In this document: piece by piece, positions 6,699-62,842 of the stretch
Layout: each line of letters starts with the position of its first letter
Position numbering within the stretch: position 1 is the stretch's first letter
The notes under the pieces: generated by a model
The model's input: the letters and a program-made list of their open reading frames with translations, nothing else
Told to the model about the DNA's origin: nothing
Databases searched by the model: none
NCBI GenBank assembly: GCA_964368085.1
Contig: CAYJBG010000001.1
Coordinates: forward strand, 23,135-87,134
Reading direction: 5' to 3'
DNA length: 64,000 bases
DNA from: an uncultured Acidiferrobacterales bacterium
Lineage (GTDB): Bacteria; Pseudomonadota; Gammaproteobacteria; Acidiferrobacterales; UBA6901
Translations under genes and position numbers: made by a program

Positions 6699-8138
6699 AT
6701 GAGATGGATAAAGGAACGCTTTCAACAGTTCGATCAACGATTCGTCGCGGTCAACGAGTCTGGCGCTGTTACTTACGCCGACTTCCTTCGAAAAGTCGAA
6801 CAGTGGCATCAAGCTATCCAGAAGTGGGGCGTCGTGTCCGGTGATCGCGTTGCTCTAGTGTCGGACTATCACATAGACGTCGTTGCCCTTCTGCAGGCAC
6901 TGATGGAAAACGCTTGCATCGTCATTCCTTTGTCGGAAGACGACCGAAGCCTGTTTGAAGAGCGCTTGCAGACGGCTTGTGCCACCAAGATCGTAACCAC
7001 CTCCGCCCGCAGGGAGATTGTTCCCAATACGACGGAATGCCGCAACTTAGTTTTCGACGATGCCGGGGTACACCCTTTGCTCGAGCCAATGGTGTCGAGC
7101 GGCAGGCCTGGTTTTGTGATCTTTACGTCGGGGAGCACAGGCAAAGGTAAGGCAGTGTTGTTGGATTATGGTCGCATGATCCAGAAGTATCGCGGAAAAA
7201 TACGGGGGGCGTTCCGCACGCTGCTGTTCCTGAAGCTCGACCATATCGGTGGTTTGAATACACTGTTTTCCGTCATCTTCAACGGCGGCACGATAGTGAC
7301 CTCTCCATCGAGGCAAGCGAAGGATATCTGTTCTTGCATAGAAACATACTCCGTGGAATTGCTACCTACCACACCGTCTTTCTTGACCATGCTGCTCATG
7401 TCGAGCGTGTACAAGAACCACGATTTGTCGTCGCTCAAGGTAATCACTTACGGAACGGAAGTGATGCCGAACTCGACGCTTGCGAGTCTCCATCAGAGCT
7501 TTCCCAAGGTAGCGTTGAAGCAGACTTATGGCTTGTCCGAGCTGGGGATTCTAGCCACGAAGTCGAAGGCCTCTTCGTCGAACTGGATGAAGATCGGTGG
7601 GGACGGTTTCGAGCTGAAGGTCATGGATGGCACGTTGTGGATCAAGAGCGAGCAGGCCATGTTGGGCTACTTGAACGCACCGAGCCCATTCGACGAGTAT
7701 GGTTGGTACAACACCGGCGATAAGGTCGAAGTCGACGGCGAGTACTTCCAGATATTGGGCCGTGAATCCGAGATCATCAATGTCGCTGGCGAGAAGGTAT
7801 TCCCCATAGAGGTCGAGAGCTTCCTGCTGACCGTCGACAACGTCAAAGACGTGGTCGTGAGGGAAAAGAGGAGTCCGGTGGTGGGACAGATGATCTGGGC
7901 CGAGTTTCTCCTAGAGCAGGAAGAAGATTCGGTGTCCTTCAAAAAACGTGTCATCGAGCAATGCCAACGTCATCTGGCGCCATTCAAGGTGCCGGGATTC
8001 ATCACCATCGCAGAGGGCGACACCCTGGTCGGTTCCCGTTTCAAGAAGATCCGCAAGGGAACAACTGACGGTGACGCACCCGGCTCGGCTGCAAGCGCTG
8101 CCGATGGTTCTGCGGCATCGGAACCTGCTATCGCCTGA
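6699..8138 (+). CDS. Acyl-AMP/acyl-CoA ligase (ANL adenylate-forming superfamily), putative starter-unit activating enzyme
   Basis: ATG 6699 follows gaggacaaggca. Core motifs: IFTSGSTGKGKAV (A3), YGLSELG (A5), WYNTGDKV (A7), GRESEIINVAGEKV (A8), SRFKKIRKG (A10 Lys). The track start at 6603 reads through the IS relic in the same frame. Confidence 0.85.
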   Translation: MRWIKERFQQFDQRFVAVNESGAVTYADFLRKVEQWHQAIQKWGVVSGDRVALVSDYHIDVVALLQALMENACIVIPLSEDDRSLFEERLQTACATKIVTTSARREIVPNTTECRNLVFDDAGVHPLLEPMVSSGRPGFVIFTSGSTGKGKAVLLDYGRMIQKYRGKIRGAFRTLLFLKLDHIGGLNTLFSVIFNGGTIVTSPSRQAKDICSCIETYSVELLPTTPSFLTMLLMSSVYKNHDLSSLKVITYGTEVMPNSTLASLHQSFPKVALKQTYGLSELGILATKSKASSSNWMKIGGDGFELKVMDGTLWIKSEQAMLGYLNAPSPFDEYGWYNTGDKVEVDGEYFQILGRESEIINVAGEKVFPIEVESFLLTVDNVKDVVVREKRSPVVGQMIWAEFLLEQEEDSVSFKKRVIEQCQRHLAPFKVPGFITIAEGDTLVGSRFKKIRKGTTDGDAPGSAASAADGSAASEPAIA

Positions 8139-8158
8139 TCAAACTACGGAGTATTTCA

Positions 8159-8899
8159 ATGTCGGGATCGAAGGAAAAAGTCGTCGTCGTCAGCGGTGGC
8201 AGCAAAGGGCTGGGCCTGGCCATCTGCAGGGCCCTGCTGGCGGAAGGCTATTGTGTTGCGACGTTCAGCCGGAAAAACACGGTCGAACTGGAAACGCTGA
8301 TGAGAGAAAGCGGGGGAAAGCTGTTCTGGGAATCAGTGGACATCACCGACGAGGCCCAGCTGACTAGATTTCTTCGCCGGGTGAGGGAGAAATTCGGACG
8401 CGTCGGCTATTTGGTCAACAGCGCCGGTATGGCCAACGAAGGTCTACTGACGATGATGAAAAGCAGGGACATCTCACGGATGATCCAAGTGAACCTGGAA
8501 GGCGCGATCACGCTGGCGCAGGCCTGCATCAAACAAATGATGGTTGGCGGCGGCTTCGGTGTCATCGTGAACGTCTCCTCGGTCGTCGGCGTGCGCGGTT
8601 TCAAAGGCGTCGCCGCTTACAGCGCGACTAAGGCTGCGCTGGACGGATTGACCAGAAGCCTCTCGAAAGAGCTAGGCTCGGTGGGTATCCGCGTCAATTC
8701 TATTGCCCCAGGTTTTATGGAAACGGAAATGACTTACGAACTCACCGATCAGCAAAAGGCAAGAATCATCCGGCAGACGCCGATGGGCAGGCTCGGCACC
8801 GTCGAAGACGTGTCGTCGGTCGTCAAGTTTCTGTTGTCCGAAGAGTCCAGTTTTATTACCGGCCACACCATCGTTGTCGATGGCGGGCTCACTGTCTGA
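8159..8899 (+). CDS. Classical short-chain dehydrogenase/reductase (FabG-like ketoreductase)
   Basis: VVVVSGGSKGLGLAI cofactor motif, NSAG, and a catalytic Ser...YSATK triad. ggag lies upstream of ATG 8159. Confidence 0.85.
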   Translation: MSGSKEKVVVVSGGSKGLGLAICRALLAEGYCVATFSRKNTVELETLMRESGGKLFWESVDITDEAQLTRFLRRVREKFGRVGYLVNSAGMANEGLLTMMKSRDISRMIQVNLEGAITLAQACIKQMMVGGGFGVIVNVSSVVGVRGFKGVAAYSATKAALDGLTRSLSKELGSVGIRVNSIAPGFMETEMTYELTDQQKARIIRQTPMGRLGTVEDVSSVVKFLLSEESSFITGHTIVVDGGLTV

Positions 8900-8915
8900 T
8901 GGGAGAGTCAACAAA

Positions 8916-9182
8916 ATGAGTAGCGATGTGAAAGTCACGATCGAGAATGTCATCCGGGCGGTGGCGGAGGAGCGCAGCCTCAGCCTGCCCGAACTCAAGG
9001 ACAACACGGAGATCGTGGACGAGCTCGGCTTCTCCTCGCTAATGGTGGCCGCGTTGATCGCGAATCTGGAAGAGGAGTTCGGCTTCGATCCGTTCCAGCA
9101 GGAGGATGTCATGATTACTGACATCAGAACCATCAAGGATCTTTGCAACGTTTACGCGAGCTGTCTGGAACGTAGCCGCTAA
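8916..9182 (+). CDS. Discrete acyl carrier protein (putative starter ACP)
   Basis: 88-aa acidic four-helix-type protein with the phosphopantetheine-site motif DELGFSSLMVAALI. It lies between the SDR and the N-terminal KS of the first PKS. The track start at 8874 overlaps the SDR and was rejected. Confidence 0.75.
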   Translation: MSSDVKVTIENVIRAVAEERSLSLPELKDNTEIVDELGFSSLMVAALIANLEEEFGFDPFQQEDVMITDIRTIKDLCNVYASCLERSR

Positions 9183-9218
9183 GCGTTCCTGTGGAAGTTT
9201 TTCAAGAGATAGAGCCGT

Positions 9219-12200
9219 ATGAACATTAAGGATAACGATATTGCTGTTATTGGGATGTCGGGAAAATTTCCTGGGGCGAATAGTGTCTCTGAATTTTGGG
9301 AGAATATCTGCGCTAAAAGGGAAAGCATCCGCTTGCTCTCCGACGAAGAACTGAGAAACGCCGAGGTCCCCGAGAAGGACATCGCCGACAGTTCCTATGT
9401 GAAAGCATCCGCGCTGCTGGACGACGTCGCTATGTTCGACCCCGGCTTTTTCAAGATATCGCCGCTGGAAGCGGAGCTGATGGACCCGCAGATCCGGCTG
9501 CTTCTGCAATGCGCCTGGGAAACCCTGGAAGACGCCGGTCATGCGAAGAAAGAAGCGCAAAACATCGGCGTTTTTGCGGGTGCGGGCGGGGTGGCGACCA
9601 GCTATTTTTCAAACTTCGTCAATGTGAACGGCCACTTCGAGAAAATTACTGCCAGTCCCACGCATCTAGGAAATGACAAGGATTTCCTGGCGACATACAT
9701 TTCGTACAAATTGAATCTAACCGGGCCGAGCATGACGGTCCAAACGGCATGCTCCACTTCTTTGGTTGCCCTGCATCAAGCACGCTTGAGCCTGCTGAGC
9801 GGCGAATGCGATATGGCACTTGCGGGAGGCGTCACCGTTCGCGTTCCTCACGGTCACGGCTACCACTACAAAGAAGGCTATATATTTTCGAAATCGGGGC
9901 GCGTCAAGACCTTCGATGAAGGCGCCGACGGCGTCGTTTTCGGTAGCGGTCTGGGACTCGTTCTGATCAAGAAGCTGTCCGATGCGATTCAAGACGGCGA
10001 CAACGTCTACGCTGTCATCAAAGGCTCGGCGATTGCGAACGATGGCAAGGGGAAGATGAGCTATGCTGCCAGCAGCGCCAAGGGGCAGATCGCATGCGTG
10101 CGTGCGGCACTTAAGAATGCCGGGGTCGAGGCGGGATCAATCGGGCTCGTCGAAGCCCACGGAACCGGCACGTCCATGGGCGATCCGGAAGAGGTCAAGG
10201 CCCTGTCGACTGCTTTCAAAGAACAGACGAGTAAGAAGACGTACTGCGCGCTGGGCGCGGTGAAAACTAACGTTGGCCATTTGGAGGCTGCTGCCGGTAT
10301 CGTTGGTTTCATCAAGGCCGTCCTGGCCGTCAAGCACGGCCTTATTCCGCCGACGGTGCACTACGCGAAGTCGAACCCCAGGATCAAGTTCGAAAATACG
10401 CCGTTTTACGTCAACGGTAAGCTGCAGAAATGGAGTGAGGGTAAGCGGCCACGGAGGGCAGCCGTCAATAGCCTGGGCGTCGGGGGCACCAATGCCTTCG
10501 TGATACTGGAAGAGTACGTTTCCGCGGAGACATCGCTGAAAAAGGCTTTGCCTACTCCTGTCGTCGTTCCGCTGTCGGCAAAATCCGAATCGAGCCTGCG
10601 CGCCTACGCGAAGAGACTCGCCGACTTCCTCGTTGCCTGTAGCGAAAAGAAGGATGCGATCAATATCGAGGATGTCGCCTACACATTGCAGGTCGGTCGC
10701 GAAACCATGGATTGCCGGGTGGCCTTCGTGCTGTCTTCTGTCGACGAGCTGAAGGCCGCATTGGACCGTTACCTGCAGGGCGCCGAGGTCTGCTCCGCGC
10801 AAGGCGAGGCATCGGGTCTCGCCACATCGTGGGTCAATAACGGCGACGTGGATTGGACGAATCTTTACGCGGATACCAAGCCGCGGCGAATCAGTCTTCC
10901 TACTTACGTCTTCGCGAGAGAGCGGTACTGGATCGAGACTGGGGGCGTTGTCCCTTCTCGCGCGGTCATCCATCCGCTCCTGCACACCAATATCTCCGAC
11001 CTGAACGAGCAAAAGTACAGTTCGTCTTTCACGGGTAACGAGTTCTTCCTCAAAGACCATCAAGTGCACACGAAGCAGCGCGCTGGCAGTGGTTCGCAGT
11101 TGCAGAAAATCCTGCCCGGGGCCGCCTATCTGGAGATGGCGCGCGTGGCGATCGAACAGGCAGCGCCGATCCATTACGACGCCAGAGTTCCAGAGTTCCG
11201 TGACATCGTGTGGTTACAGCCCATCGCAGTGTCCGGGGGAAAGCAGGTCAATATCGCACTGGTGGCCAGAGATCGGGACGGTCAGCAGCGCATCGATTTC
11301 GAAGTCTATACGCGGAATGACCATATCCATTTTCAGGGCCGGTGCGTGTTCGCCAGCGAATCGGCGCGTGATCGGCTCGATCCTGCGCGGCTAAAGGACT
11401 CTATGGCGCGGGACCAGTGGTCGGCCGACAGCGTTTACGCGGCTTTTGCCAAAATGGGTCTCGACTACGGGCCTGCGCATCGGGCGATCATTGCGATCGA
11501 TCGTGGCGAACGCGAGCTGCTCGCGCAGTTGAAACTACCGCTTACGGTGGAGGCAAGCCAGCCGGATTACGTGCTCCATCCCAGTTTGATCGACGGCGCC
11601 TTGCAGGCCGCCACCGCGCTGCTCTTCGATCTGAACAACGTCCCCAGTCATCCCATCGTCCCGTTCGCCATCGAGAGCCTGCGCGTAATCGCGCCGTGCG
11701 CCAAGGAGATGCTCGCGTGGGTCCGCTATTCACAGGGCGCTCAGCCGAGCGATAAGTCCGCGAAGCTGGATGTCGATTTGCTCGACAAGGAAGGGAACGT
11801 GGGCGTGCAAATCCGCGGATTCGTGCCTCGGTCGCTCGGTCAGGAGACCCTCGGTAGCCTGCTTGCGACGCAAGTATGGCAGCCCAGCAACCCTGCCGCG
11901 ACTCAAGCGACTTATACGGAGCGGCACGTCGTCCTATGCGACCTGCCGCATGTCGACGCGAGTAAAATCGCCCGTGATTGTTCGCTACTGCAGATTGAAA
12001 AAGGAAAAAACATTGCGGAGCGGTACAGTGATTTGGCGCTCGCATGTTTCGAAAAAGTGCAAGCGTTGGTCAAACGCAAACCTCAAAGCGAGACGTTCGT
12101 GCAGGTGGTGATACCGAACACGGACGAAAACGCGGCGTATGCCGGCTTGTCGGGCCTGTTCAAGACGGTGAGACTGGAGAACCCGCAGATCGCAGGCCAG

Positions 12201-15200
12201 CTTGTTTTCGTTGACGTCGGTGTCGGCACTGACGAACTCATGAATCTGCTGCACGCCGAGTGCAGTCATCCCCACGACACGTTGATCAAGTATGAACAGG
12301 GCGTCAGACACATCTCGAGCTGGCAATTCCTGAAGGAGGACGATGCCGACACGTTTGATGGGAATAACCCCTACAAAGACCAAGGCGTCTATCTGATCAC
12401 CGGCGGGCTCGGCGGTCTGGGCGTTGTATTCGCAAAAGAAATCCTAGCCCGAACCTCGAACGCGAAAATCGTCCTGAGCGGGCGGGCGCCGCCGTCCGAA
12501 GTCAGAAAGTCCGCAAGCAAGAAGGCGGTTCTCGAATCGCTGCAAGCCGGTGGAGCGACGGTGGAGTATCGGCAGCTCGATCTGGACGATCCGAATAAGG
12601 TCAAAAACCTGATCGCGGCGATCCAGAAGAAGTACAAGCAGCTGAACGGCATCATCCACAGCGCGGGAATGACGTCGGACGGCTTTATCTTAAAAAAGAC
12701 CGCCGCCGACGTCGGTCGCGTTCTTGCCCCGAAAGTCCTAGGCACCTTCCATCTGGATCAGGCGACGCAGGACGTCGACCTCGACTTCCTGGTCTTGTTT
12801 TCGTCGCTGACTTCTGCCGTGGGTAACCTGGGGCAGGCGGATTACGCCGCAGCCAATGGGTTCATGGACGAGTTCGCGGCTTATCGCAACCGCTTGGCGA
12901 ATGCCGGAAAACGCCGGGGTTTCACGCTCTCCATCCGCTGGCCGCTGTGGCAGGACGGCGGTATGCAGCCAGATGCCGCCGGCAGGGAGATGCTGCAGGA
13001 GACAACCGGCATCTGTCCTATGCAGACGTCGGTTGGGATTCGAATGTTCTATCGGAGTTTGGCATCCCGGTACGACCAGACCCTGGTAATGGAAGGCGAT
13101 CTGCATCTGATGCAGCGGACCTTGGGCGTTGGGGCAGCGATCCATGCGGCTACGCCGGCAGTCGACGTCCCGAAGCTCGAATTCTCGTCCGAAACCGAAG
13201 GCGAAGATAGGGGTGGGCGTAGCCTCACGGAGCTGACCGAGGCCTACCTATGCAAGCAATTGTCGGCGTCACTGAAGTTGCCGGCACACAAAGTCGATCC
13301 GCGGGCTCCCCTTGAAGACTATGGGATTGACTCGATACTGGCTTTGGGTTTGACGAGCTCGCTGGAGAAGACCTTCGGGTCTCTTCCGAAGACTCTGTTC
13401 TTCGAGTATTTGACGGTCCGCGAGCTGGCCGGTTACTTCGTCAAAGCGCATGTCGCGCGGTTGTCGAAACTCTTTTCGGTTTCGGAGAGCGGCAGCGGCC
13501 AAGAATCGATGCAAGTATCGGCGCAAGCGCTGGCCCCGGCCCAGCAGGAATCCATTTCCAGCGTTCGCTTCGGCAGCCGGCGCTTCATTGACGAGGGCGG
13601 TCAACCGGTATCCCGTGAGGTAGCACCTTCCACGAACGATCCGATTGCGATCATCGGATTGAGCGGCCGTTATCCCGAAGCGCGTAATCTGAAAGATTTC
13701 TGGCGCAATCTGCGCGAAGGCAAAGATTGCATCGTCGAAGTGCCGAAAGGCCGTTGGGATTGGCGGGATTATTACAGTGAAGATCGCTCCGAAAAGGGCC
13801 GCCACTACAGCAAATGGGGCGGCTTCATCGAGGGCGTCGACGAGTTCGACGCGAGGTTCTTCAATATTTCCCCGGTCGAGGCCGAAACGATCGATCCGCA
13901 GGAACGCTTGTTCCTGCAGCATGCTTGGATGGCGATCGAGGATGCGGGCTATACCCGCGCCGCTTTGCAGATTCCGAAGGAGAGTGACCTTGCCGGGCAG
14001 GTGGGCGTGTATGCGGGTGTGATGTACGGCGAATATCAGCTCTTCGGCGCCGAAGTCAGCTTGCAGGGCAATCGCGTGGGCTTCGCCAGCAATCTCGCCA
14101 GCATCGCCAATCGCGTTTCCTATGTTATGAATCTGCACGGTCCCAGCATGGTTGTGGACACCATGTGCTCGTCGTCGCTGACGGCGATCCACTTGGCGTG
14201 TCAGGACCTCAAGCTCGGCCGCACGTCGCTAGGTATCGCAGGCGGCGTCAATGTCACAATCCATCCCAACAAGTACCTGATGCTCAGCGCCGGACAGTTC
14301 ATTTCCAGCGACGGTCACTGTCAGAGCTTCGGCGAGGGTGGCGAAGGCTATATCCCGGGCGAGGGCGTTGGCGTCGTCGTGCTGAAACGGCGATCCGAAG
14401 CGGAGCGCGACGGCAACCACATCTACGGCATCATCCGGGGCAGCGCGCTTAGCCACGGCGGCAAGACCAACGGCTACACGGTGCCAAATCCGCAGGCGCA
14501 GGCCCGCGCTATCCGTCTGGCGCTGGCGGAAGCCGGCATTGATCCCCGCCATATCAGCTATGTCGAAGCGCATGGCACGGGCACCAAACTGGGCGATCCG
14601 ATCGAGATCGCCGCGCTGAGCAAGGTTTTTCAAGAAAGCACGCAGGACACCGGATTCTGCCTGATCGGATCGGCGAAATCGAATATCGGCCACTGCGAGG
14701 CCGCGGCGGGCATTGCGGGACTCACCAAGGTGCTGTTGCAGTTGAAGCACAAGCACATCGTGCCTTCGCTGCATTCGGCCCGACTGAATCCACACATTGA
14801 TTTCGACAGCACCCCGTTCATCGTCAATCAGGCGCTCAGGCCATGGGAGCAGCCGGTCGTTGACGGAAAGAGGTTGCCGCGTATCGCTGGCATCTCGTCC
14901 TTCGGGGCGGGCGGTGCGAACGCGCACCTGATCGTCGAGGAATATCCGCAGCCCGTGGTGGCCGTGTGTCCGCAGGCCGATGTCGAGTACATCTTCCCGC
15001 TCTCGGCGAGAACTGCGGAGCAGCTGCGTGAGAAAGCGCGCGATCTGCTCGACTTTATCCGCGGCGAAGAGCCGCCGCTGCCTCTGGCGTCGATCGCCTA
15101 CACGCTCGAGGTCGGCCGCGAGGCGATGGACGAACGCTTGGCCGTCCTCGCGGATTCCGTCGCGACGCTCGCCGACCGACTTCAGGCCTATCTCGATGGC

Positions 15201-56356: not shown

Positions 56357-56367
56357 CGGAGCAATTT

Positions 56368-57075: not shown

Positions 57076-57201
57076 CCGGGCGGCAGTGGCGAATGCCGGT
57101 AGTCTCCCGGATTTATATTCTTGAGTTATTGTCATTCGGTCGCCTACAGCAAGCACCGCTAGGGCGTCATTTGAATTTATCTGCATCACCGGAGGTAGCA
57201 C

Positions 57202-58461
57202 ATGAACATGGTTGGAATCGAAGCGATGAACCTCTTTGCCGGTACAGGCTTTGTGGATGTAACGAAGCTTGCTAGGCATCGAAAGCTGGACATGAGTCGG
57301 TTTGAAAATTTGATGATGAAGGAGAAAAGCGTCGCCTTGCCCTATGAGGATCCCATCACTTTTGCAGTCAATGCAGCGAAGCCAATTATTGATGCATTGA
57401 TTCCCGAAGAGAAAGACCGGATCGAGATGGTGATTACTTGCACGGAATCTGCGTTCGATTTCGGAAAATCCATGAGCACCTACTGTCACGATGTGCTCGG
57501 GCTGAATCGCAACTGCCGTCTGTTTGAGCTGAAGAACGCCTGTTACTCGGGCGTTGCTGGCCTACAGATGGCGATCAATTTCGTCTTGTCCCAAACATCG
57601 CCGGGCGGCAAGGCATTGGTCATCGCCACCGACGTTTCCCGTTTCATGGTCGAAGAAGGTGGTGACGCGCTTTCGGCCGACTGGTCCTTCGCCGAGCCGA
57701 GCGGTGGATCCGGGGCTGTTGCAATGTTGATCAGTAACAAGCCCTACGTGTTCCAGATCGATGTGGGCGCGAACGGTTATTACGGTTACGAAGTGATGGA
57801 CACCTGTCGGCCTTCTGCGGACACTGATGCGGGGGACACGGATTTGTCCTTGCTTTCGTATTTGAATTGCTGCGAGAACGCCTACCTCGAGTATCAGAAG
57901 CGCGTCGACGGCGCTCATTTCGGAGAAACCTTCGGTTACTTGGCCTATCACACGCCGTTCGGCGGAATGGTCAAGGGCGCTCACCGCAACATCATGCGCA
58001 AGTTTGTCAAAGCTAAACCGGCGGACATTGAAGATGATTTCCAGCGTCGTGTGACGCCCGGTCTCATCCATTGCCAGCGGGTAGGCAATATCATGGGCGC
58101 GACCGCCGCGCTCGCCCTTGCCAGCACCATCGATAACGGAGAATTCGAAACGCCTAAACGCGTCGGGGTCTTCTCCTACGGTTCGGGCTGTTGTTCGGAA
58201 TTCTTTAGCGGCGTTGTCAGAAAAGAAGGCCAGGAACGTCTGCGAGCGCTCAAGATCAAGGAAAGACTGGACTACAGGTATGAGCTGTCGATGGAGCAGT
58301 ACGACCGCCTGCTCGAGAAGAGTCGGGAACTGAAATTTGGTACGCGCAACATGGTTCCAGACATGGAATTTATCCCGAAGGCCAGAACGACCCTTAACCA
58401 ACCAACCTTGCTACTGAAACAGATCAAAGAGTTTCATCGAGAGTACGAATGGGTATGCTGA
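57202..58461 (+). CDS. HMG-CoA synthase-like beta-branching enzyme (HMGS; PksG/CurD/MupH type)
   Basis: ggagg lies before ATG 57202. Active-site motif ELKNACYSGVAG (Cys codon 57541), plus YHTPFGGMVKGAH and GNIMGA. 419 aa. Confidence 0.92.
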   Translation: MNMVGIEAMNLFAGTGFVDVTKLARHRKLDMSRFENLMMKEKSVALPYEDPITFAVNAAKPIIDALIPEEKDRIEMVITCTESAFDFGKSMSTYCHDVLGLNRNCRLFELKNACYSGVAGLQMAINFVLSQTSPGGKALVIATDVSRFMVEEGGDALSADWSFAEPSGGSGAVAMLISNKPYVFQIDVGANGYYGYEVMDTCRPSADTDAGDTDLSLLSYLNCCENAYLEYQKRVDGAHFGETFGYLAYHTPFGGMVKGAHRNIMRKFVKAKPADIEDDFQRRVTPGLIHCQRVGNIMGATAALALASTIDNGEFETPKRVGVFSYGSGCCSEFFSGVVRKEGQERLRALKIKERLDYRYELSMEQYDRLLEKSRELKFGTRNMVPDMEFIPKARTTLNQPTLLLKQIKEFHREYEWVC

Positions 58462-59234
58462 ATAGCGCCTACGAAACGATCCGAGTGAAGTTTGAAGACG
58501 ACATTTGTTTCGTTCAAATCCATCGACCGGAATTCAACAACGCGATCAACAATCGCCTAATCGAAGAGTTCGGCGACGCCCTTCATGTGTGTGAAGGGCC
58601 CGCGAAAGTCGTGGTGGTGGAGGGGCTACCGGACGTTTTTTGCTCCGGTGCGGATTTCAAAGAGATTCAAACGAGATTCGACGATGAAAGCCCAAGCCAG
58701 GAGCAGGATCCAGAACCACTGTACGACTTATGGCATCGGCTCGCTTCGGGACCCTATATCACCATCGCCCATGTACGGGGCAGGGCCAATGCCGGCGGCA
58801 TCGGCTTCGTAGCCGCGTGTGATATCGTTCTTAGCGAGAACAAGGCGGCATTCAGCTTGTCCGAACTGCTGTTCGGCTTGATGCCGGCATGTGTTCTGCC
58901 ATTCCTTATTCGTCGGATTGGATTCGCGAAGGCCAATTATATGACGCTGACGACTCAGCCGATTCCCGCGAGTCAAGCGCGGGAGTGGGGATTGGTCGAT
59001 GCCTGCGAAGATAACAGCGAGAATCTGTTACGCAAGCAACTGTTGAGGCTCAGGCGTCTCGGTCTGGACGGAATCGCGCGATACAAGCGCTATGCCAACA
59101 GTCTGGACGACGCGCTTAGTGCATCCAAGCTGAAAGCGCTTGAAGCTAACGTGGAAGTGTTTTCCGATCCGGACAATCTTCAGAAGATCGCCCGCTACGC
59201 AAGGACAGGAAAATTCCCCTGGGAGGCCGATTGA
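58449..59234 (+). CDS. Discrete enoyl-CoA hydratase-like ECH1 (dehydratase, PksH/CurE type)
   Basis: Crotonase fold with VVVVEGLPDVFCSGADF and HVRGRANAGGIGFVAACD. It overlaps the HMGS stop by 13 nt. Confidence 0.85.
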   Translation: MGMLNSAYETIRVKFEDDICFVQIHRPEFNNAINNRLIEEFGDALHVCEGPAKVVVVEGLPDVFCSGADFKEIQTRFDDESPSQEQDPEPLYDLWHRLASGPYITIAHVRGRANAGGIGFVAACDIVLSENKAAFSLSELLFGLMPACVLPFLIRRIGFAKANYMTLTTQPIPASQAREWGLVDACEDNSENLLRKQLLRLRRLGLDGIARYKRYANSLDDALSASKLKALEANVEVFSDPDNLQKIARYARTGKFPWEAD

Positions 59235-59983
59235 TGTCAGACCAGATCATCGAAACCAAGGGGCTGGGCTCCGGGATCGTCCAAGTGAAGATGCAGGATC
59301 GTGTCAATAAGAACGCGTTCACCAACGAACTGATTGATGGTCTGACCGAGGCGTTCGAGGACATCAAGGCCCGCACCGACTATAAAGTCGTGATCCTGAC
59401 GGGCTACGATAATTATTTCTCCAGCGGTGGCACGCAGGAAGGACTGCGCGATCTATTCGAGGGGAAGATCAAGTTTACGGACAAAGACCTGTACAGCCTA
59501 GCGCTGAACTGCCCGATTCCTGTGATCGCGGCCATGCAGGGCCATGGTATCGGCGGCGGCTTCGTCATGGGGATGTTCGCCGATTTCGTGATTCTGGCGA
59601 GGCAAAGTATCTACACGACCAACTTCATGAAGTATGGCTTCACGCCAGGCATGGGGTCGACCTTTATCCTGCCAAAAAAGCTGGGGTTCAGTCTGGCCGA
59701 GGAGATGATGCTGACCGCGTCGACCTATCGCGGAGAAGAGCTTCAAAATCGTGGCGTTCCTTTCCCCGTTATTCCTCGAGAAAATGTGCTAGAGCACGCC
59801 TTCGAGCTGGCCAAGAGCCTAGCTGAAAAACCTAGGGTGTCGCTGGTCACGCTGAAAGATCATCTGGTCACGCCGCTTAGGGAGCAACTACCAAAGTTTA
59901 TCGAGCAAGAGATCGCCATGCACGAGCTCACGTTCCACCAGCTGGAGGTCAAGGATCGCATTGAGGCCTTCTTCGGAAAGTGA
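59234..59983 (+). CDS. Discrete enoyl-CoA hydratase-like ECH2 (decarboxylase, PksI/CurF-ECH2 type)
   Basis: The ATG overlaps the ECH1 stop (TGATG). Motifs: VVILTGYDNYFSSGGT, AAMQGHGIGGGF, EIAMHELTF. Confidence 0.88.
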   Translation: MSDQIIETKGLGSGIVQVKMQDRVNKNAFTNELIDGLTEAFEDIKARTDYKVVILTGYDNYFSSGGTQEGLRDLFEGKIKFTDKDLYSLALNCPIPVIAAMQGHGIGGGFVMGMFADFVILARQSIYTTNFMKYGFTPGMGSTFILPKKLGFSLAEEMMLTASTYRGEELQNRGVPFPVIPRENVLEHAFELAKSLAEKPRVSLVTLKDHLVTPLREQLPKFIEQEIAMHELTFHQLEVKDRIEAFFGK

Positions 59984-60020
59984 TTCATCAGATGTTCATA
60001 TCTGTTAGGAGAAAATTACT

Positions 60021-60260
60021 ATGAGTAAAGAGAAAATCTTTGAGATCATCGTTCGCCATACCCGTGAGGTGGTTCCGAGATTGGAAGATCATCAGTTTCA
60101 GCCGAGCGATTCACTGAGGGCGCTGGGCGCCAATTCGGTCGACCGTGCCGACATCATCATGATGACTTTGGAGTCCTTGGCTCTGAACATTCCTTTGATT
60201 GAAATAGCCAAAGCCGACAACATCGGGGAATTGGCCGGTATTTTCCATGAGAAGTCCTAG
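60021..60260 (+). CDS. Discrete donor ACP of the HMGS cassette (AcpK/MacpC type)
   Basis: 79-aa acidic protein with LRALGANSVDRADIIMM (Ser attachment site). ggag lies upstream. It sits between ECH2 and the decarboxylating KS. Confidence 0.8.
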   Translation: MSKEKIFEIIVRHTREVVPRLEDHQFQPSDSLRALGANSVDRADIIMMTLESLALNIPLIEIAKADNIGELAGIFHEKS

Positions 60261-61515
60261 TTGCTTCGACATCGTGATCACTGGTGTCGGCGTCACCTCG
60301 GCCATCGGTCAGGGAAAGGCAGAATTTCTCCCGGCGTTATTAGAGGGTCGGCATCGTTTCGATGCGATGCGTCGCCCTGGCCGGCAACTCCCTGCCTTAT
60401 CGCGCGATGAAATGCCGGAAGCGGGACAGGCCTTTGGCTTCATAGGCGCCGAGATTCCTGCGTTGCCAATACCGGAGTCGATTCCCAGGAGCTTGCTGCG
60501 GACGGCGTCGTTTTCAGGCCAGGTTGCCCTTGCAACCTTGCACGAGGCTTGCGAAGACGCGAGGTTGGATAAGGTCGCGCCTGAGCGCATCGGCTTGGTT
60601 GTCGGCGGCTCCAACGTCCAGCAAAGGGAGTTGATACAGGTCCACGACGCCTATCGGGGCCGTGAGCAATTCCTGCGTCCAACGTACGGAATGTCCTTTA
60701 TGGACAGCGACCTGTGCGGGCTGTGTACGGAGGCGTTCGGCATACGGGGATTCGCCTACACGGTCGGTGGGGCTTCCGCCAGCGGGCAAGTCGCCGTTCT
60801 TGAGGCCATCCATGCAGTCGAATCCGGGAGAGTGGAGGTTTGTATCGCGATGGGTGCGCTCATGGATATCTCCTACTGGGAGTGCCAAGGATTGCGCTCT
60901 CTGGGCGCCATGGGATCGGACCGTTACGCCAATGAACCCGCGTTAGCGAGCCGCCCTTTTGACCGTGATCGCGATGGGTTCATTTTTGGCGAGTCGTGCG
61001 GCGTCGTGGTGATAGAACGACTGGAGTCTGCGCAAAGATTGGAGCGACCGCCGTATGCTCGCTTGTCCGGCTGGGCGATGGGCATGGATGCAAACAGGAA
61101 TCCCAATCCTTCTATCGGGGGCGAGGTCGCCGCGATCAAGGCGGCTCTGGAACGCGCTGGGCTTTCGTCGATGGACATCGACTACATCAACCCTCATGGC
61201 ACAGGCTCGACGATCGGAGATGTTACGGAACTCGAAAGCATTCGTCAGTGCGGACTTGGTCACGCCTATCTCAACGCGACGAAATCTATTATCGGGCACG
61301 GCCTCAGCGCTGCAGGTGTCGTCGAGATGATCGCAATCCTGCTTCAAATGAAAGAGGGCAGACTACACCCGACGAGGAACCTGGAGAACCCTATCGACTC
61401 TTCGTTCAAGTGGGTTGGGCGCCAGGCGGTCTCTCACACGATAGAAAACGCGCTTAACCTCAGCATGGGGTTCGGCGGGGTCAATACTGCGGTTTGTATA
61501 CAAAAGTATTCTTGA
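60247..61515 (+). CDS. Non-elongating decarboxylating ketosynthase (KS-DC; PksF/MupG/CurC type)
   Basis: Discrete (FabF-type) KS fold in which the active-site Cys is replaced by Ser (VGGASASG, Ser codon 60775). Both His residues are retained (NPHGTGS; KSIIGHGLSAAG). It overlaps the ACP by 14 nt. Confidence 0.88.
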   Translation: MRSPSCFDIVITGVGVTSAIGQGKAEFLPALLEGRHRFDAMRRPGRQLPALSRDEMPEAGQAFGFIGAEIPALPIPESIPRSLLRTASFSGQVALATLHEACEDARLDKVAPERIGLVVGGSNVQQRELIQVHDAYRGREQFLRPTYGMSFMDSDLCGLCTEAFGIRGFAYTVGGASASGQVAVLEAIHAVESGRVEVCIAMGALMDISYWECQGLRSLGAMGSDRYANEPALASRPFDRDRDGFIFGESCGVVVIERLESAQRLERPPYARLSGWAMGMDANRNPNPSIGGEVAAIKAALERAGLSSMDIDYINPHGTGSTIGDVTELESIRQCGLGHAYLNATKSIIGHGLSAAGVVEMIAILLQMKEGRLHPTRNLENPIDSSFKWVGRQAVSHTIENALNLSMGFGGVNTAVCIQKYS

Positions 61516-61652
61516 TCTCGTTGACCGTGCTGACGCACGACGCGAATCAGGAAGGTGTCAACTAGATGCGACGCGGTTCCGTCCCCGGATGGTTTGGCGG
61601 TCGCGCGCGTTATGTCCCTGTGTTGCGGAAGCGCGTTTTCTCGGTTTACCTA

Positions 61653-61674
61653 AATCTCAATTCAATCTCAATTC
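61653..61674 (+). repeat. Perfect tandem 11-mer (AATCTCAATTC x2) upstream of the AT RBS
   Basis: aatctcaattc at 61653-61663 is repeated exactly at 61664-61674, 6 nt before ggagg and 17 nt before ATG 61691. Confidence 0.8.
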
Positions 61675-61690
61675 CAATGGAGGTACACTC

Positions 61691-62842
61691 ATGAAGGCGT
61701 ATATGTTCCCCGGCCAGGGTTCACAGTTCAAAGGTATGGGCGGTGACCTGTTCGACCGCTTCAAAGAATTGACCAAGAAGGCCAACAGTATCCTGGGCTA
61801 CTCCATCAAGCAGCTTTGTGTGGAAGACCCGAGGAACGAACTCAGCAAGACCCAGTTCACCCAGCCTGCTCTTTACGTCGTGAACGCCTTGTCATATTTA
61901 AAGAAGATCGAAGAAACCGGGCAGACTCCGGACTTCGTGATTGGACACAGCCTGGGCGAGTTCAATGCTCTTCTGGCGGCTGAATGCTTCGATTTCGAAA
62001 CCGGTTTGAAGTTGGTCCAGAAGCGTGGCGAACTGATGCGTCAGGTGTCCAATGGGGGAATGGCGGCTGTACTGAATGCCACGAAAGATGAAATCGAAGA
62101 AGTACTAAAGGAAAACGGGTTGGCCAACGTCTACTTGGCCAATTACAACACGCCATCACAGATTGTGCTCTCGGGCCCGGCGGACGAGATCGCCAAAGCG
62201 GAGAAATTCTTCCAGGAGGGAAAGAGACGTTATTACCCGCTCGCCACGAGCGGCGCGTTCCACTCCGCCTTCATGCAAGAGGCGATGGAGAAGTTCAGAG
62301 AGTACCTCAAGGGATTCGATTTTGCTGATCAGAAAATTCCGGTCATTGCCAACGTTACCGCAAGGCCCTATCAGAACAACGCCGTTTTGGAGACGTTGTC
62401 GAGCCAGATAGCGAGTACAGTCCGATGGTCCGAGAGCATCCAGTACCTGTTGGCGCTCGGCGTCAGCCACGGCGAGGCGGTGGAGTTTGAGGAGTTTGGC
62501 CCTGGGGATGTTCTGACGAAACTGGTCTACACGATTAAGGTGCAGACTCCGGAATCTGTACTTCATCAGATTATCAAGGAAGAACAGCCGGATGAAAAGG
62601 TCGCGCATGAGGTTGGGAATAAGGTCGAGAACGACGTGCCAGGCAAACTCACCGACGCCGAAGAGAGGGTGATCGCCTGGAACAAGATGTATCCGATTGG
62701 GAAGAAAGTTAGATCTACGATCGCGGATTACGATGATCTTGAAACTAGGACCGAGGCCGTCTTACTGTTCGGGCACAGGGCCGCAGTTTATGTGAAGGGA
62801 TACAATGGCTACTTCGATTTGAACGAGTTAACACCGGTCTGA
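61691..62842 (+). CDS. Discrete trans-acting acyltransferase (malonyl-CoA:ACP transacylase type) with ~95-aa C-terminal extension
   Basis: ggagg lies before ATG 61691. Motifs: FPGQGSQ, GHSLGEF (Ser codon 61949), TSGAFHS (malonyl-type). The AT fold ends near GPGDVLTKLV (~62540). The remainder has no motif I recognise. The track start at 61589 was rejected. Confidence 0.9.
   Translation: MKAYMFPGQGSQFKGMGGDLFDRFKELTKKANSILGYSIKQLCVEDPRNELSKTQFTQPALYVVNALSYLKKIEETGQTPDFVIGHSLGEFNALLAAECFDFETGLKLVQKRGELMRQVSNGGMAAVLNATKDEIEEVLKENGLANVYLANYNTPSQIVLSGPADEIAKAEKFFQEGKRRYYPLATSGAFHSAFMQEAMEKFREYLKGFDFADQKIPVIANVTARPYQNNAVLETLSSQIASTVRWSESIQYLLALGVSHGEAVEFEEFGPGDVLTKLVYTIKVQTPESVLHQIIKEEQPDEKVAHEVGNKVENDVPGKLTDAEERVIAWNKMYPIGKKVRSTIADYDDLETRTEAVLLFGHRAAVYVKGYNGYFDLNELTPV

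What the first reader, a model, noticed from the sequence alone, without database searches (positions are those of the whole stretch)
6699..62842. Orphan ~56-kb trans-AT PKS cluster: 10 KS modules, pure polyketide, three beta-branches
Seen: three contiguous ORFs (17.2, 15.5 and 13.8 kb) contain 10 KS domains with intact Cys/His/His motifs. Each KS is followed by a flanking subdomain ending LPTYPFxxxRYW, and none is followed by an AT. One discrete AT (GHSLGE/GAFHS) and a full HMGS cassette lie downstream. I found no NRPS C or A domains, no GNAT or FkbH loader, no ER and no P450. Established: this is the trans-AT architecture, and trans-AT KS sequence type tracks the incoming intermediate. Here KS2, KS5 and KS8, each downstream of a DH-KR-ACP module, have near-identical N-termini (PIAI(I/V)GLSGRYPE...DGKDCIVEVPK.RWDWR.YYSEDR). 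KS3, KS4 and KS6, each downstream of a beta-branching module, share NQDGKTNGITAP. That supports a colinear reading. Inference: a starter acyl plus 9-10 malonyl units would give enoyl units from modules 1, 4, 7 and 8 (and 10), beta-branches from modules 2, 3 and 5, an alpha-methyl-beta-hydroxy unit from module 6, and a beta-hydroxyl from module 9. The product would be a branched polyene acid or ester. From memory the domain string does not match pederin, bacillaene, mupirocin, kalimantacin, bongkrekic acid, bryostatin or similar pathways. That is recollection, not a search.
Basis: partly seen in the sequence, partly recalled or inferred. Interest (0 to 1): 0.75.

Follow-up and report, generated by a model that had tools for sequence, protein, structure and literature searches.

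The report
Part of widespread sulfur-installing polyketide cluster
The window holds the middle of a larger (about 85-90 kb) trans-AT polyketide gene cluster from a groundwater bacterium; it is not a one-off orphan, because many cultured and uncultured bacteria carry the same cluster, and its final product, probably a sulfur- and nitrogen-bearing branched polyene lipid, has not been described in the papers I could search.

Summary
The sequence observations hold. There are three contiguous megasynthase genes with 10 KS domains (all Cys/His/His), no cis-AT, three beta-branching modules, a discrete AT and a full HMGS cassette.

PKS3 ends in KS-DH with no ACP or TE. On the parent groundwater contig, just upstream of the window, lie three more genes:
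- a 3510-aa PKS with DUF2156 and a tyrosine-phenol-lyase-like PLP domain, followed by KS-DH-KR-ACP-KS-DH (its relatives start with an ACP);
- a class-III aminotransferase;
- an ACP-KS0-ACP-TE protein.

DUF2156-PLP is the leinamycin-type "DUF-SH" sulfur-installing didomain. A second AT, a CysE-like gene, a methyltransferase-like protein and a PPTase lie downstream. The cluster is therefore neither 56 kb, nor 10 modules, nor pure polyketide.

The same organisation, at 60-67% identity where tested (PKS1), occurs in Massilia violaceinigra and Chitiniphilus purpureus. Its conserved tail or back-end synteny occurs in Lysobacter enzymogenes, Chromobacterium vaccinii, Kordia, Aquimarina and dozens more. 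Aquimarina sp. Aq78, the source of the pantetheine-bound intermediate cuniculene, shares the back-end synteny.

Verdict: a new member of a known but functionally unsolved family.

The parts
1..1815 (+). MMPL/RND-type exporter (860 aa in full; the 5' end lies outside the window)
   Evidence: Pfam MMPL, Patched and sterol-sensing. The full gene is seen in L085. It is conserved next to the PKS in Aquimarina, Chitiniphilus and Massilia.
1889..2779 (+). LolA-like / DUF1329 periplasmic lipid-carrier-like protein
   Evidence: Pfam LolA_like 9.7e-43 and DUF1329. An exact match was found on groundwater contigs.
2812..4185 (+). Probable outer-membrane protein, DUF1302-like
   Evidence: No Pfam hit for the window protein itself. 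The gene at the same position in Massilia carries PF06980 DUF1302. The window protein was not compared with it directly. Family relatives at 36-42% identity are seen in other loci.
4220..5494 (+). GMC-type FAD oxidoreductase
   Evidence: Pfam GMC_oxred_N. Conserved at the same position in relatives.
5542..6294 (+). Conserved 250-aa protein of unknown function. Relatives carry two paralogues; the window carries one.
   Evidence: 66-67% identical to the Chitiniphilus and Massilia proteins. No Pfam or NCBIfam hit.
6699..8138 (+). Stand-alone AMP-binding (ANL) acyl ligase, the probable starter-unit loader
   Evidence: Pfam AMP-binding 1.5e-36. Homologues at 60-81% identity in Massilia, Telluria, Chitiniphilus, Caballeronia and Bordetella.
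8159..8899 (+). FabG-like SDR, either a starter-processing reductase or a trans-acting ketoreductase
   Evidence: Pfam adh_short_C2 4.7e-61. NCBIfam 3-oxoacyl-ACP reductase, 231 bits.
8916..9182 (+). Stand-alone 88-aa ACP (ELGFSSL) for the loader
   Evidence: ORF translation. Called gene with a weak PP-binding hit.
9219..26462 (+). PKS1: KS1-DH-KR-ACP / KS2-DH*-ECH-ECH-ECH-ACPb / KS3-DH0-ACPb-ACPb-EI-like / KS4-DH
   Evidence: Pfam, in-house HMMs, motif checks. The first 3100 aa are 60-67% identical to Chitiniphilus and Massilia PKS1.
26459..41941 (+). PKS2: KR-ACP / KS5-DH*-ECH-ECH-ECH-ACPb-ACPb / KS6-DH0-KR-cMT-ACP / KS7
   Evidence: Pfam, HMMs, DH motifs.
42002..55876 (+). PKS3: DH-KR-ACP / KS8-DH-KR-ACP / KS9-KR-ACP / KS10-DH. 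It ends without an ACP or TE.
   Evidence: Pfam, HMMs. The tail ...KS-KR-ACP-KS-DH recurs before the HMGS gene in at least 60 of 80 related loci.
55895..56356 (+). Membrane methyltransferase of the PEMT / isoprenylcysteine carboxyl-MT type
   Evidence: Pfam PEMT 2.2e-12. NCBIfam isoprenylcysteine O-MT, weak. Present in only 7 of 80 related loci.
56368..57075 (+). MBL-fold hydrolase (SolJ-like)
   Evidence: Pfam Lactamase_B. NCBIfam SolJ 275 bits, below the 350-bit cutoff. Present in 45 of 80 loci.
57202..58461 (+). HMG-CoA-synthase-like beta-branching enzyme (HMGS)
   Evidence: Pfam. Relatives at 72-91% identity in 80 GTDB genomes.
58449..59234 (+). Stand-alone ECH1 (dehydratase type)
   Evidence: Pfam ECH_1. 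Only 22% identical to ECH2.
59234..59983 (+). Stand-alone ECH2 (decarboxylase type)
   Evidence: Pfam ECH_1 6.8e-70. 47-48% identical to the third in-line ECH of modules 2 and 5.
60021..60260 (+). Donor ACP of the HMGS cassette
   Evidence: 79-aa ORF. Conserved at this position in relatives.
60247..61515 (+). Decarboxylating KS with the active-site Cys replaced by Ser (GGASASG)
   Evidence: Pfam KS. Motif.
61691..62842 (+). Discrete malonyl-CoA:ACP acyltransferase AT1 (GHSLGE, GAFHS)
   Evidence: Pfam Acyl_transf_1. NCBIfam FabD 335 bits, above the cutoff.
62918..63211 (+). Conserved 97-aa protein of unknown function
   Evidence: 52-65% identical copies in Telluria, Rhizobacter, Bordetella and Pseudoduganella loci.
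63557..64000 (+). 5' part of a CysE-like serine O-acetyltransferase (175 aa in full). The cluster continues past the window end.
   Evidence: Full gene in L001. NCBIfam serine O-acetyltransferase 1.2e-50.

Best explanation
The window is the central 64 kb of a trans-AT polyketide synthase cluster of about 85-90 kb, carried by an uncultured bacterium from Hainich groundwater. The cluster belongs to a widespread, architecturally conserved family.

Proposed pathway:
1. A stand-alone AMP-ligase loads an unknown acid onto a stand-alone ACP. The adjacent FabG-like SDR may process it.
2. PKS1, PKS2 and PKS3 (KS1-KS10) build the chain, with malonyl units supplied by the discrete AT.
   - Modules 1, 4, 7 and 8 give enoyl units.
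   - Modules 2 and 5 (in-line ECH2-type domains) and module 3 (trans ECH1/ECH2 plus an isomerase-like domain) give three HMGS-derived beta-branches.
   - Module 6 gives an alpha-methyl-beta-hydroxy unit.
   - Module 9 gives a beta-hydroxy unit.
3. PKS3 ends in KS10-DH. It hands the chain to the N-terminal ACP of the PKS encoded just upstream of the window.
4. On that PKS a DUF2156/PLP 'DUF-SH' didomain, as in leinamycin LnmJ, adds (thio)cysteine to an unsaturated intermediate and cleaves the C-S bond. This leaves an -SH or -SSH group.
5. Two more elongations follow (KSa, KSb).
6. The class-III aminotransferase probably aminates the last beta-keto group.
7. An ACP-KS0-ACP-TE protein releases the product.
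8. The MMPL exporter, the LolA-like protein and the DUF1302-like protein probably move the lipophilic product into the cell envelope.

Shown: gene and domain content, active-site motifs, synteny and its conservation. Inferred: the order PKS3 to upstream PKS, the sulfur and amine chemistry, export, and the product.
For: End of the line inside the window:
- PKS3 ends in KS-DH with no ACP or TE.

Upstream genes on the same contigs:
- They encode DUF2156-PLP-KS-DH-KR-ACP-KS-DH, then Aminotran_3, then ACP-KS-ACP-TE.
- The full-length orthologues of the upstream PKS start with PP-binding.
- The last KS lacks both His residues, so it is a KS0.

Identity of the PLP didomain:
- The best solved-structure match is a PKS protein, 9cen_A, at E 1.6e-51. 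Tyrosine phenol-lyases follow. The lysine in SLVKDF aligns with SLSKDF of 9cen_A.
- The whole didomain is 39-43% identical to Streptomyces and Kitasatospora PKSs over 88-98% of its length.
- PMC3870968 lists LnmJ, Kordia A9ECY5 and Lysobacter F8TUA6 with the same CP-DUF2156-PLP3 string.
- PMC8479088 shows that SH domains are thiocysteine lyases. It lists Lysobacter, Chromobacterium vaccinii and Tahibacter proteins as non-leinamycin DUF-SH PKSs.
- A CysE-like gene sits beside the ATs.

Conservation of the whole organisation:
- Chitiniphilus and Massilia have the same gene order, and their PKS1 begins with the same domain order and is 60-67% identical.
- The PKS3 tail plus the MBL-HMGS cassette is conserved in dozens of genomes.
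- In the Chitinophaga and Lysobacter ISL-50 loci the DUF-SH PKS lies downstream of the HMGS cassette and the ATs. The two parts therefore travel together in different arrangements.
- MMPL, LolA-like and the 463-aa (DUF1302-like) protein lie next to the HMGS cassette in Fulvivirga, Sporocytophaga and Steroidobacter.
Against: - The first 181 aa of the upstream PKS from this organism were not retrievable. Its N-terminal ACP is inferred from orthologues.
- Module 10 (KS10-DH|ACP) has no KR, and KS10 keeps Cys/His/His. How the Michael acceptor for sulfur addition arises is therefore unclear.
- No KS clade assignment (TransATor) could be run.
- The role of the aminotransferase, the export and the product are inferred only from gene content.
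- No mature sulfur- or nitrogen-containing product has been reported for any member. The only compound tied to the family, cuniculene, contains neither feature in its acyl chain.
Confidence: 0.7

Rival explanations
1. The cluster is self-contained at 6699-62842, about 56 kb. Its 10 modules make a pure polyketide, a branched polyene acid or ester. That product is released without a TE, for example by the MBL-fold hydrolase, and methyl-esterified by the PEMT-like enzyme.
For: An MBL-fold hydrolase and a carboxyl-MT-like gene directly follow PKS3. All 10 KS look elongating.
Against: - Module 10 has no ACP at all.
- An ACP-first PKS and an ACP-KS0-ACP-TE protein are encoded on the same strand about 2-15 kb upstream of the window start. 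They co-occur with this PKS across genera and in permuted gene orders.
- The PEMT-like gene is absent from 73 of 80 related loci and the MBL gene from 35 of 80.
Confidence: 0.05
2. The components are the same but the order differs: PKS1 to the upstream DUF-SH PKS, then PKS2, PKS3 and the ACP-KS0-ACP-TE protein. Sulfur would then be installed after module 4 rather than after module 10.
For: PKS1, PKS3 and the upstream PKS all end in KS-DH. PKS2 (KR-ACP), the upstream PKS (ACP) and the TE protein (ACP) could each accept any of them.
Against: - The PKS1 stop codon overlaps the PKS2 start codon (26459-26462), and PKS3 follows 60 nt later.
- The upstream PKS, the aminotransferase and the TE protein are likewise contiguous.
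- In the Chitinophaga and Lysobacter ISL-50 loci the DUF-SH PKS follows the whole PKS block and the HMGS cassette.
- KS5 groups with KS2 and KS8. This is expected for either order, so it does not discriminate.
Confidence: 0.1
3. A mechanistic variant. KS10 does not elongate. KS9-KR-ACP-KS10-DH|ACP would then act as a 'dehydrating bimodule'. It would place an alpha,beta-enoyl thioester on the DUF-SH ACP, the same kind of Michael acceptor as in leinamycin. The chain would be one C2 unit shorter.
For: The domain string KS-KR-ACP-KS-DH-ACP is that of the type-B dehydrating bimodules of trans-AT PKSs (established knowledge, not tested here). There is no KR in module 10. KS10 is the most divergent of KS2-KS10, at 41-54% identity.
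Against: KS10 and all its orthologues that were checked keep Cys, EGHGTGT and N(I/V)GH. Typical KS0 domains, such as KSc here, lose the His residues.
Confidence: 0.35
4. Two unrelated clusters happen to lie side by side. One is a DUF-SH/aminotransferase/TE PKS with the export genes. The other is the 10-KS PKS with the HMGS cassette.
For: About 6.5 kb of transport and oxidoreductase genes separate the two PKS blocks in this organism.
Against: - Neither block is complete alone. One lacks a loader and the other lacks a terminal ACP and TE.
- The linkage is kept in Beta- and Gammaproteobacteria and in Bacteroidota, despite rearrangement.
Confidence: 0.03

Closest known systems
Orthologous uncharacterised clusters in Massilia violaceinigra (CP024608.1), Chitiniphilus purpureus (CP106753.1), Lysobacter enzymogenes ATCC 29487, Chromobacterium vaccinii MWU205, Pseudoduganella flava, Caballeronia udeis, Bordetella tumulicola, and a Telluria MAG
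   Same: - Same gene order in Massilia and Chitiniphilus: TE-PKS, MMPL, LolA-like, a 441-456-aa protein (DUF1302 in Massilia), GMC, unknown protein, AMP-ligase, SDR, ACP, PKS1.
- Same first modules in those two genomes: KS-DH-KR-ACP-KS-DH*-ECH-ECH-ECH, plus ACPb in Massilia (the Chitiniphilus locus ends before it).
- Same tail, ...DH-KR-ACP-KS-KR-ACP-KS-DH | MBL | HMGS | ECH | ECH | ACP | KS | AT, in the genomes sampled around the HMGS gene.
- Identities: PKS1 60-67%, HMGS 79-91%, AMP-ligase 64-76%.
   Different: - Sequence identity is only 50-90%.
- PKS1 length differs (5011 and 5588 aa against 5747 aa).
- The window lacks one of two paralogous 250-aa genes.
- The window has a PEMT-like gene that most relatives lack.
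- No product is known for any of them in the literature I could search.
Cuniculene cluster of Aquimarina sp. Aq78/Aq349 (Helfrich et al. 2019, Nat Chem Biol 15:813; primary paper not readable here)
   Same: - Aq78 carries the same back end in the same order: ACP-DUF2156-PLP-KS-DH-KR-ACP-KS-DH, aminotransferase (54% identical), ACP-KS-ACP-TE, MMPL, LolA-like, GMC and the unknown protein.
- Cuniculene 6b is a pantetheine thioester of a C17 chain (C21 with its branch carbons) with three exomethylene beta-branches, enoyl, hydroxy and alpha-methyl-hydroxy units (PMC9323603 supplement). These are the same unit types as predicted here.
   Different: - Identity is about 50%.
- The unit order in cuniculene (branch, OH, Me/OH, ene, branch, ene, branch) does not match modules 1-9 here (ene, branch, branch, ene, branch, Me/OH, ene, ene, OH). 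The front of the assembly line therefore differs.
- I could not verify from the primary paper that locus L091 is the published cun cluster.
- Cuniculene looks like an off-loaded intermediate without the sulfur and amine steps.
Leinamycin-family AT-less PKSs (LnmJ, GnmT, WsmR) with the DUF-SH didomain
   Same: - The ACP-DUF2156-PLP (tyrosine-phenol-lyase-like) didomain is 39-43% identical to PKSs of Streptomyces and Kitasatospora plasmids, taken to be of the leinamycin type.
- HMGS-type beta-branching occurs in the same pathway.
- It is a trans-AT system.
   Different: - In the leinamycin family the didomain sits in the last module, before the TE, of a hybrid NRPS-PKS that makes an 18-membered macrolactam. 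Here it is internal, followed by two more KS modules.
- There is no NRPS, thiazole or LnmK/L-type propionyl branch machinery here.
- The hosts are Gram-negative.
Bacillaene/pederin-type trans-AT PKSs with HMGS cassettes
   Same: - Discrete AT.
- MBL-fold accessory gene.
- Cassette of HMGS, ECH1, ECH2, ACP and KS(Ser).
- W-flagged tandem acceptor ACPs.
- In-line crotonase domains and an isomerase-like domain after the ACPs.
(The comparison with these pathways rests on my knowledge of them, not on a test here.)
   Different: The domain string differs, there are no NRPS modules, and this cluster has an AMP-ligase loader, a DUF-SH step, an aminotransferase and an MMPL/LolA export set.

Membership tests
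trans-AT (AT-less) modular PKS | KS-containing modules without an integrated AT; a KS-flanking (AT-docking) subdomain instead | tested here: met
   No Acyl_transf_1 hit in 15.5 thousand aa of PKS. A RhiE-like linker and an LPTYPF...RYW-type motif follow each of the 10 KS.
trans-AT (AT-less) modular PKS | Free-standing malonyl-specific AT encoded in the cluster | tested here: met
   AT1 at 61691-62842 has GHSLGE and GAFHS and scores 335 bits against FabD, above the cutoff. A second AT (GASLG) lies just past the window.
HMGS beta-branching cassette | HMGS, ECH1, ECH2, donor ACP and a decarboxylating KS (Cys->Ser) | tested here: met
   All five genes lie at 57202-61515. The KS motif is GGASASG.
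HMGS beta-branching cassette | Acceptor ACPs carrying the conserved Trp flag (DSxxxxxW) | tested here: met
   Five ACPs in modules 2, 3 and 5 read GLDSI(T/I)GV(T/E)W. The other ACPs do not.
DUF-SH sulfur-installing PKS module (leinamycin type) | DUF2156 (aaPGS-like) domain fused to a tyrosine-phenol-lyase-like PLP domain, next to an ACP | tested here: met
   Pfam LPG_synthase_C plus Beta_elim_lyase in the upstream PKS. PDB match 9cen_A, a PKS protein, at E 1.6e-51, with the lysine aligned. 39-43% identity to Streptomyces PKSs over both domains. The didomain lies outside the window. The preceding ACP is seen only in orthologues.
DUF-SH sulfur-installing PKS module (leinamycin type) | Thiocysteine or cysteine lyase activity that leaves -SSH or -SH on the chain | not testable with these tools
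   This needs an enzyme assay or the product structure.
Leinamycin family of natural-product clusters | [quoted passage not shown] | tested here: not met
   No C or A domains are present. The DUF-SH didomain is followed by KS-DH-KR-ACP-KS-DH and a separate ACP-KS0-ACP-TE protein.
Cuniculene-type cluster (Aquimarina) | Shared back-end synteny: DUF-SH PKS, aminotransferase, TE-PKS, MMPL, LolA-like, GMC | tested here: met
   L091 from Aquimarina sp. Aq78 has the same order. Its aminotransferase is 54% identical.
Cuniculene-type cluster (Aquimarina) | Module order that reproduces the cuniculene acyl chain | tested here: not met
   The cuniculene unit order read from its SMILES differs from the order of modules 1-9 here.
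Cuniculene-type cluster (Aquimarina) | Identity of locus L091 with the published cun cluster | tested here: inconclusive
   The primary paper is not held. Secondary papers state only that Aq78 carries the trans-AT cluster for cuniculene.

The most novel reading that the evidence does not exclude
This family makes a class of natural products not yet described: long, triply beta-branched polyenes carrying a thiol or hydropersulfide and a terminal amine. A dedicated MMPL/LolA-like/DUF1302 system delivers them to the outer membrane. The family is conserved in at least Beta- and Gammaproteobacteria and Bacteroidota, and markers of it also occur in MAGs assigned to other phyla. Cuniculene would then be only a shunt intermediate, and the mature product would serve a general envelope function, such as redox or stress protection, rather than act as a niche antibiotic.
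Probability: 0.35. Interest if true: 0.7.

Novelty: new member of a known kind. Interest (0 to 1): 0.5.

Why it matters
If the model is right, this groundwater cluster and its many orthologues in culturable Massilia, Chitiniphilus, Lysobacter, Chromobacterium, Kordia and Aquimarina encode an unsolved polyketide. That polyketide would combine three chemistries rarely seen together: multiple HMGS branches, mid-chain DUF-SH sulfur installation, and amination. It also comes with a lipid-type export system.

This gives a concrete, testable target for finding the mature product of a family known so far only through a pantetheine-bound intermediate. It would also show that the leinamycin-type sulfur module works mid-chain in Gram-negative assembly lines.

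For the scan itself, the lesson is that the boundaries and the 'pure polyketide' call made from a 64-kb window were wrong, because the gene order is circularly permuted relative to biosynthesis.

Tried and rejected
- The search for homologous proteins with the C-terminus of the upstream PKS returned only fragments shorter than 1000 aa. The full 3510-aa protein and its first 181 aa could not be fetched.
- An exact look-up of the 463-aa ORF failed because of a wrong start codon.
- The TransATor paper that describes cuniculene is not in the library. Supplements of PMC9860996 held nothing useful.
- Literature searches found no paper on the product. The term sets were trans-AT + LolA/MMPL, Aquimarina + TransATor, Massilia/Chromobacterium/Lysobacter + trans-AT, and thiocysteine + trans-AT.
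- A tblastn search of the DUF-SH didomain against plasmids found only actinomycete leinamycin-type PKSs. No Gram-negative plasmid copy could be read in full.
- I first thought that the 'type II' relatives (KS-DH | DH-KR-ACP-KS before the HMGS gene) proved KS10 to be non-elongating. I rejected this. The small PKS is a split-off piece of the DUF-SH PKS (its KS carries the ECHGTGT motif of KSb), and all these KS keep Cys/His/His.
- Solanimycin was considered because of the SolJ hit. It was rejected because the score is below the cutoff and there is no NRPS here.
- The host taxon could not be named.

Full report
**1. What is in the window**

All genes of interest lie on the + strand. Pfam gives the following upstream genes:
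- a 5'-truncated MMPL exporter (1-1815);
- a LolA-like/DUF1329 protein (1889-2779);
- a 457-aa protein; the gene at the same position in Massilia is DUF1302 (2812-4185);
- a GMC oxidoreductase (4220-5494);
- a conserved unknown protein (5542-6294);
- an AMP-binding ligase (6699-8138);
- a FabG-like SDR (8159-8899);
- an 88-aa ACP (8916-9182).

Three megasynthases follow. Their domain strings come from Pfam on 1000-aa slices and from HMMs built on the window's own domains:
- PKS1 (9219-26462): KS1-DH-KR-ACP-KS2-DH*-ECH-ECH-ECH-ACP-KS3-DH-ACP-ACP-DHx-KS4-DH.
- PKS2 (26459-41941): KR-ACP-KS5-DH*-ECH-ECH-ECH-ACP-ACP-KS6-DH-KR-MT-ACP-KS7.
- PKS3 (42002-55876): DH-KR-ACP-KS8-DH-KR-ACP-KS9-KR-ACP-KS10-DH.

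Downstream lie a PEMT/ICMT-like methyltransferase, an MBL-fold hydrolase, HMGS, ECH1, ECH2, an ACP, a KS with Cys->Ser, and a FabD-like AT.

**2.

- All ten KS have the Cys/His/His residues.
- Each KS is followed by a linker ending in an LPTYPF...RYW-type motif.
- There is no cis-AT, C, A, ER or P450 domain in the PKSs.
- KS2, KS5 and KS8 are 76-79% identical, and each follows a DH-KR-ACP module.
- KS3 and KS6 (68% identical) and KS4 follow beta-branching modules and share NQDGKTNGITAP.
- The acceptor ACPs of modules 2, 3 and 5 carry the DSxxxxxW flag.

Refinements:
- The DH-like domains of modules 2 and 5 are truncated and lack both His and Asp.
- The module 3 DH has Cys in place of His.
- The module 6 DH lacks His.
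- The extra double-hotdog domain after the module 3 ACPs keeps His but not Asp, like enoyl-isomerase-type domains (the comparison with isomerase domains is from established knowledge).
- Modules 2 and 5 contain three crotonase-fold stretches. All three are closer to ECH2 than to ECH1. Only the third is a good ECH2, 47-48% identical to the stand-alone one.

**3.

PKS3 stops at KS10-DH with no ACP and no TE.

Exact-sequence look-ups place the window on contigs from Hainich groundwater metagenomes (ENA ERZ1292623 and ERZ1292627; Logan ERR3858113-115 and SRR32696702/05).

Upstream of the MMPL gene, on the same strand, lie three genes:
- A 3510-aa PKS, here called PKS0. Its Pfam string is LPG_synthase_C (DUF2156), Beta_elim_lyase, then KS-DH-KR-ACP-KS-DH. 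The full-length orthologues start with an ACP.
- A 585-aa class-III aminotransferase.
- A 1239-aa ACP-KS-ACP-TE protein. Its KS has lost both His residues (EVDGYAS, NIGN), so it is a transfer KS0.

Downstream of the window lie a CysE-like serine acetyltransferase (its start is at 63557), a second AT (GASLG), an 879-aa TPR/methyltransferase-like protein and a PPTase.

Every inter-protein junction then makes sense as a split module:
- PKS1 (KS4-DH) | PKS2 (KR-ACP...);
- PKS2 (KS7) | PKS3 (DH-KR-ACP...);
- PKS3 (KS10-DH) | PKS0 (ACP-DUF-PLP...);
- PKS0 (KSb-DH) | ACP-KS0-ACP-TE.

The gene order is thus circularly permuted relative to the likely biosynthetic order. The full line has 12 KS with a full catalytic set plus one KS0.

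**4. The DUF2156-PLP didomain**

- Its best solved-structure match is a 'Polyketide Synthase Protein', 9cen_A, at E 1.6e-51. Tyrosine phenol-lyases and tryptophanases follow.
- The DUF part matches the aminoacyl-phosphatidylglycerol synthase domains LpiA and MprF.
- The lysine in SLVKDF aligns with SLSKDF of 9cen_A. From my knowledge of tyrosine phenol-lyase, this is the PLP-binding lysine.
- Across both domains it is 39-43% identical to PKSs on Streptomyces and Kitasatospora plasmids.
- Milano et al. 2013 list the string CP-DUF2156-PLP3 for leinamycin LnmJ and also for Kordia algicida A9ECY5 and Lysobacter sp. ATCC 53042 F8TUA6 (PMC3870968).
- Meng et al. 2021 showed that the SH domains of the leinamycin family are thiocysteine lyases that install -SSH. 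They noted three further families of DUF-SH PKSs outside the leinamycin type. Their representatives include Lysobacter, Chromobacterium vaccinii and Tahibacter aquaticus (PMC8479088).
- C. vaccinii and T. aquaticus are among my related loci (L027, L072).

So 'pure polyketide' is unlikely. Sulfur incorporation is predicted, and the CysE-like gene fits a need for cysteine or thiocysteine.

The aminotransferase sits between PKS0 and the TE protein, and its long N-terminal extension might serve docking (a guess). It probably aminates the unreduced beta-keto group of the last elongation. The DH there has a damaged His motif and is absent from split relatives. This step is inference.

**5. It is a family, not an orphan**

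- The HMGS has relatives at 72-91% identity in 80 GTDB species representatives.
- In at least 60 of these loci the PKS gene before the HMGS cassette carries the same ...KS-KR-ACP-KS-DH tail, with or without an extra split-off DH-KR-ACP-KS protein. In 45 loci the MBL gene is present.
- The aminotransferase has homologues at 48-81% identity in Chitiniphilus, Lysobacter, Chitinophaga, Fulvivirga, Aquimarina, Kordia, Aliikangiella and Colwelliaceae.
- The AMP-ligase has homologues at 60-81% identity in Massilia, Telluria, Chitiniphilus, Caballeronia, Paraburkholderia, Bordetella and Trinickia.
- Massilia violaceinigra and Chitiniphilus purpureus, both with complete genomes, show the identical gene order from the TE protein to PKS1. 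Their PKS1 shows the same first nine or ten domains and is 60-67% identical over 3100 aa.
- In a Chitinophaga MAG and in Lysobacter sp. ISL-50 the DUF-SH PKS lies after the HMGS cassette and the ATs. The two halves therefore stay linked through rearrangements.
- MMPL, LolA-like and the 463-aa (DUF1302-like) protein sit next to the HMGS cassette in Fulvivirga, Sporocytophaga and Steroidobacter. This supports a role in handling the product.

**6. Link to cuniculene**

Aquimarina sp. Aq78 has the same back end in the same order. Secondary papers say that Aq78, Aq349, EL33 and A. muelleri carry the trans-AT cluster for cuniculene (PMC9323603, PMC9860996).

The supplement of PMC9323603 gives 'cuniculene 6b' as C32H52N2O7S with a SMILES string. 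It is a pantetheine thioester of a C17 acyl chain (C21 with its branch carbons) with three exomethylene branches.

Read from the starter, its units are: C3 starter, branch, OH, Me/OH, ene, branch, ene, branch. These are the same unit types as predicted here. The order differs from modules 1-9 of the window, which read ene, branch, branch, ene, branch, Me/OH, ene, ene, OH.

The Bacteroidota loci Fulvivirga and Sporocytophaga have a triple-ACP branching module directly before the conserved KS-KR-ACP-KS-DH tail. This fits cuniculene being an intermediate stalled before the conserved back end.

I could not read the primary paper. The identity of L091 with the published cluster is therefore likely but unproven. 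In the papers I could search, no mature product with sulfur or nitrogen is described for any member.

**7. Open mechanistic point**

Module 10 (KS10-DH|ACP-DUF-SH) has no KR, and KS10 and its orthologues keep Cys/His/His. There are three options:
- KS10 is in practice a transfer KS, and KS9-KR-ACP-KS10-DH-ACP acts as a dehydrating bimodule that gives an enoyl-ACP.
- The FabG-like SDR serves as a trans-KR.
- The DH dehydrates the delta-hydroxy-beta-keto intermediate to an enone.

I cannot decide between them with these tools.

**8. Verdict**

The cluster is larger, is not purely polyketide, and belongs to a widespread family that has already been noticed but whose end product is unknown. It is a new member of a known kind. 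Its interest is moderate as a mining target and as an example of a mid-line DUF-SH module combined with lipid-type export.

Noticed in passing
window 6295-6602: Relatives (Chitiniphilus, Massilia) have a second 256-259-aa paralogue of the unknown 250-aa gene here. The window has only a spacer of about 310 nt with a 41-aa ORF (6468-6593, MKKRFSEVQIIRFLREADAES...). From memory, this ORF resembles the N-terminus of an IS3-family transposase OrfA.
   Followed up: partly
window 63557-64000 (continues in L001 16356-16883): A CysE-like serine O-acetyltransferase (NCBIfam E 1e-50) is encoded between the two AT genes. This fits a supply of cysteine or thiocysteine for the DUF-SH step.
   Followed up: partly
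window 16626-18761 and 31244-33328: Modules 2 and 5 each contain three consecutive crotonase-fold stretches, all ECH2-like. The middle one lacks the GG oxyanion motif. Only the last is close (47-48%) to the stand-alone ECH2.
   Followed up: partly
window 1-64000: G+C is 58-66% in the three PKS genes but 49-55% in the export, loader and HMGS-cassette genes of the same cluster. The host taxon could not be named. The nearest cluster relatives are high-G+C Oxalobacteraceae.
   Followed up: no
window 56368-57075: The best NCBIfam match of the MBL-fold protein is SolJ of the solanimycin pathway (275 bits, below the 350-bit cutoff). Its role here is unknown.
   Followed up: no
L001 17883-20522 (about 1 kb past the window end): An 879-aa protein with N-terminal TPR repeats and a PRMT/PrmA-like methyltransferase core. 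It is conserved in the Telluria, Bordetella and Aquimonas loci. It is a candidate S- or N-methyltransferase.
   Followed up: no
L020, L026, L047, L061 (Chitinophaga MAG, Lysobacter ISL-50, Kordia): In these relatives the DUF-SH PKS is split. A small DH-KR-ACP-KS protein, whose KS has the ECHGTGT motif of KSb, sits before the HMGS gene. In the Chitinophaga MAG and Lysobacter ISL-50 loci, ACP-DUF-SH-KS is seen after the ATs; the Kordia loci do not reach it. This is a gene-order variant of the same assembly line.
   Followed up: partly
window 22023-22559: The two tandem ACPs of module 3 are nearly identical over about 70 aa (…NKSFTELGLDSIIGVEWVKT…), which points to a recent internal duplication.
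   Followed up: no
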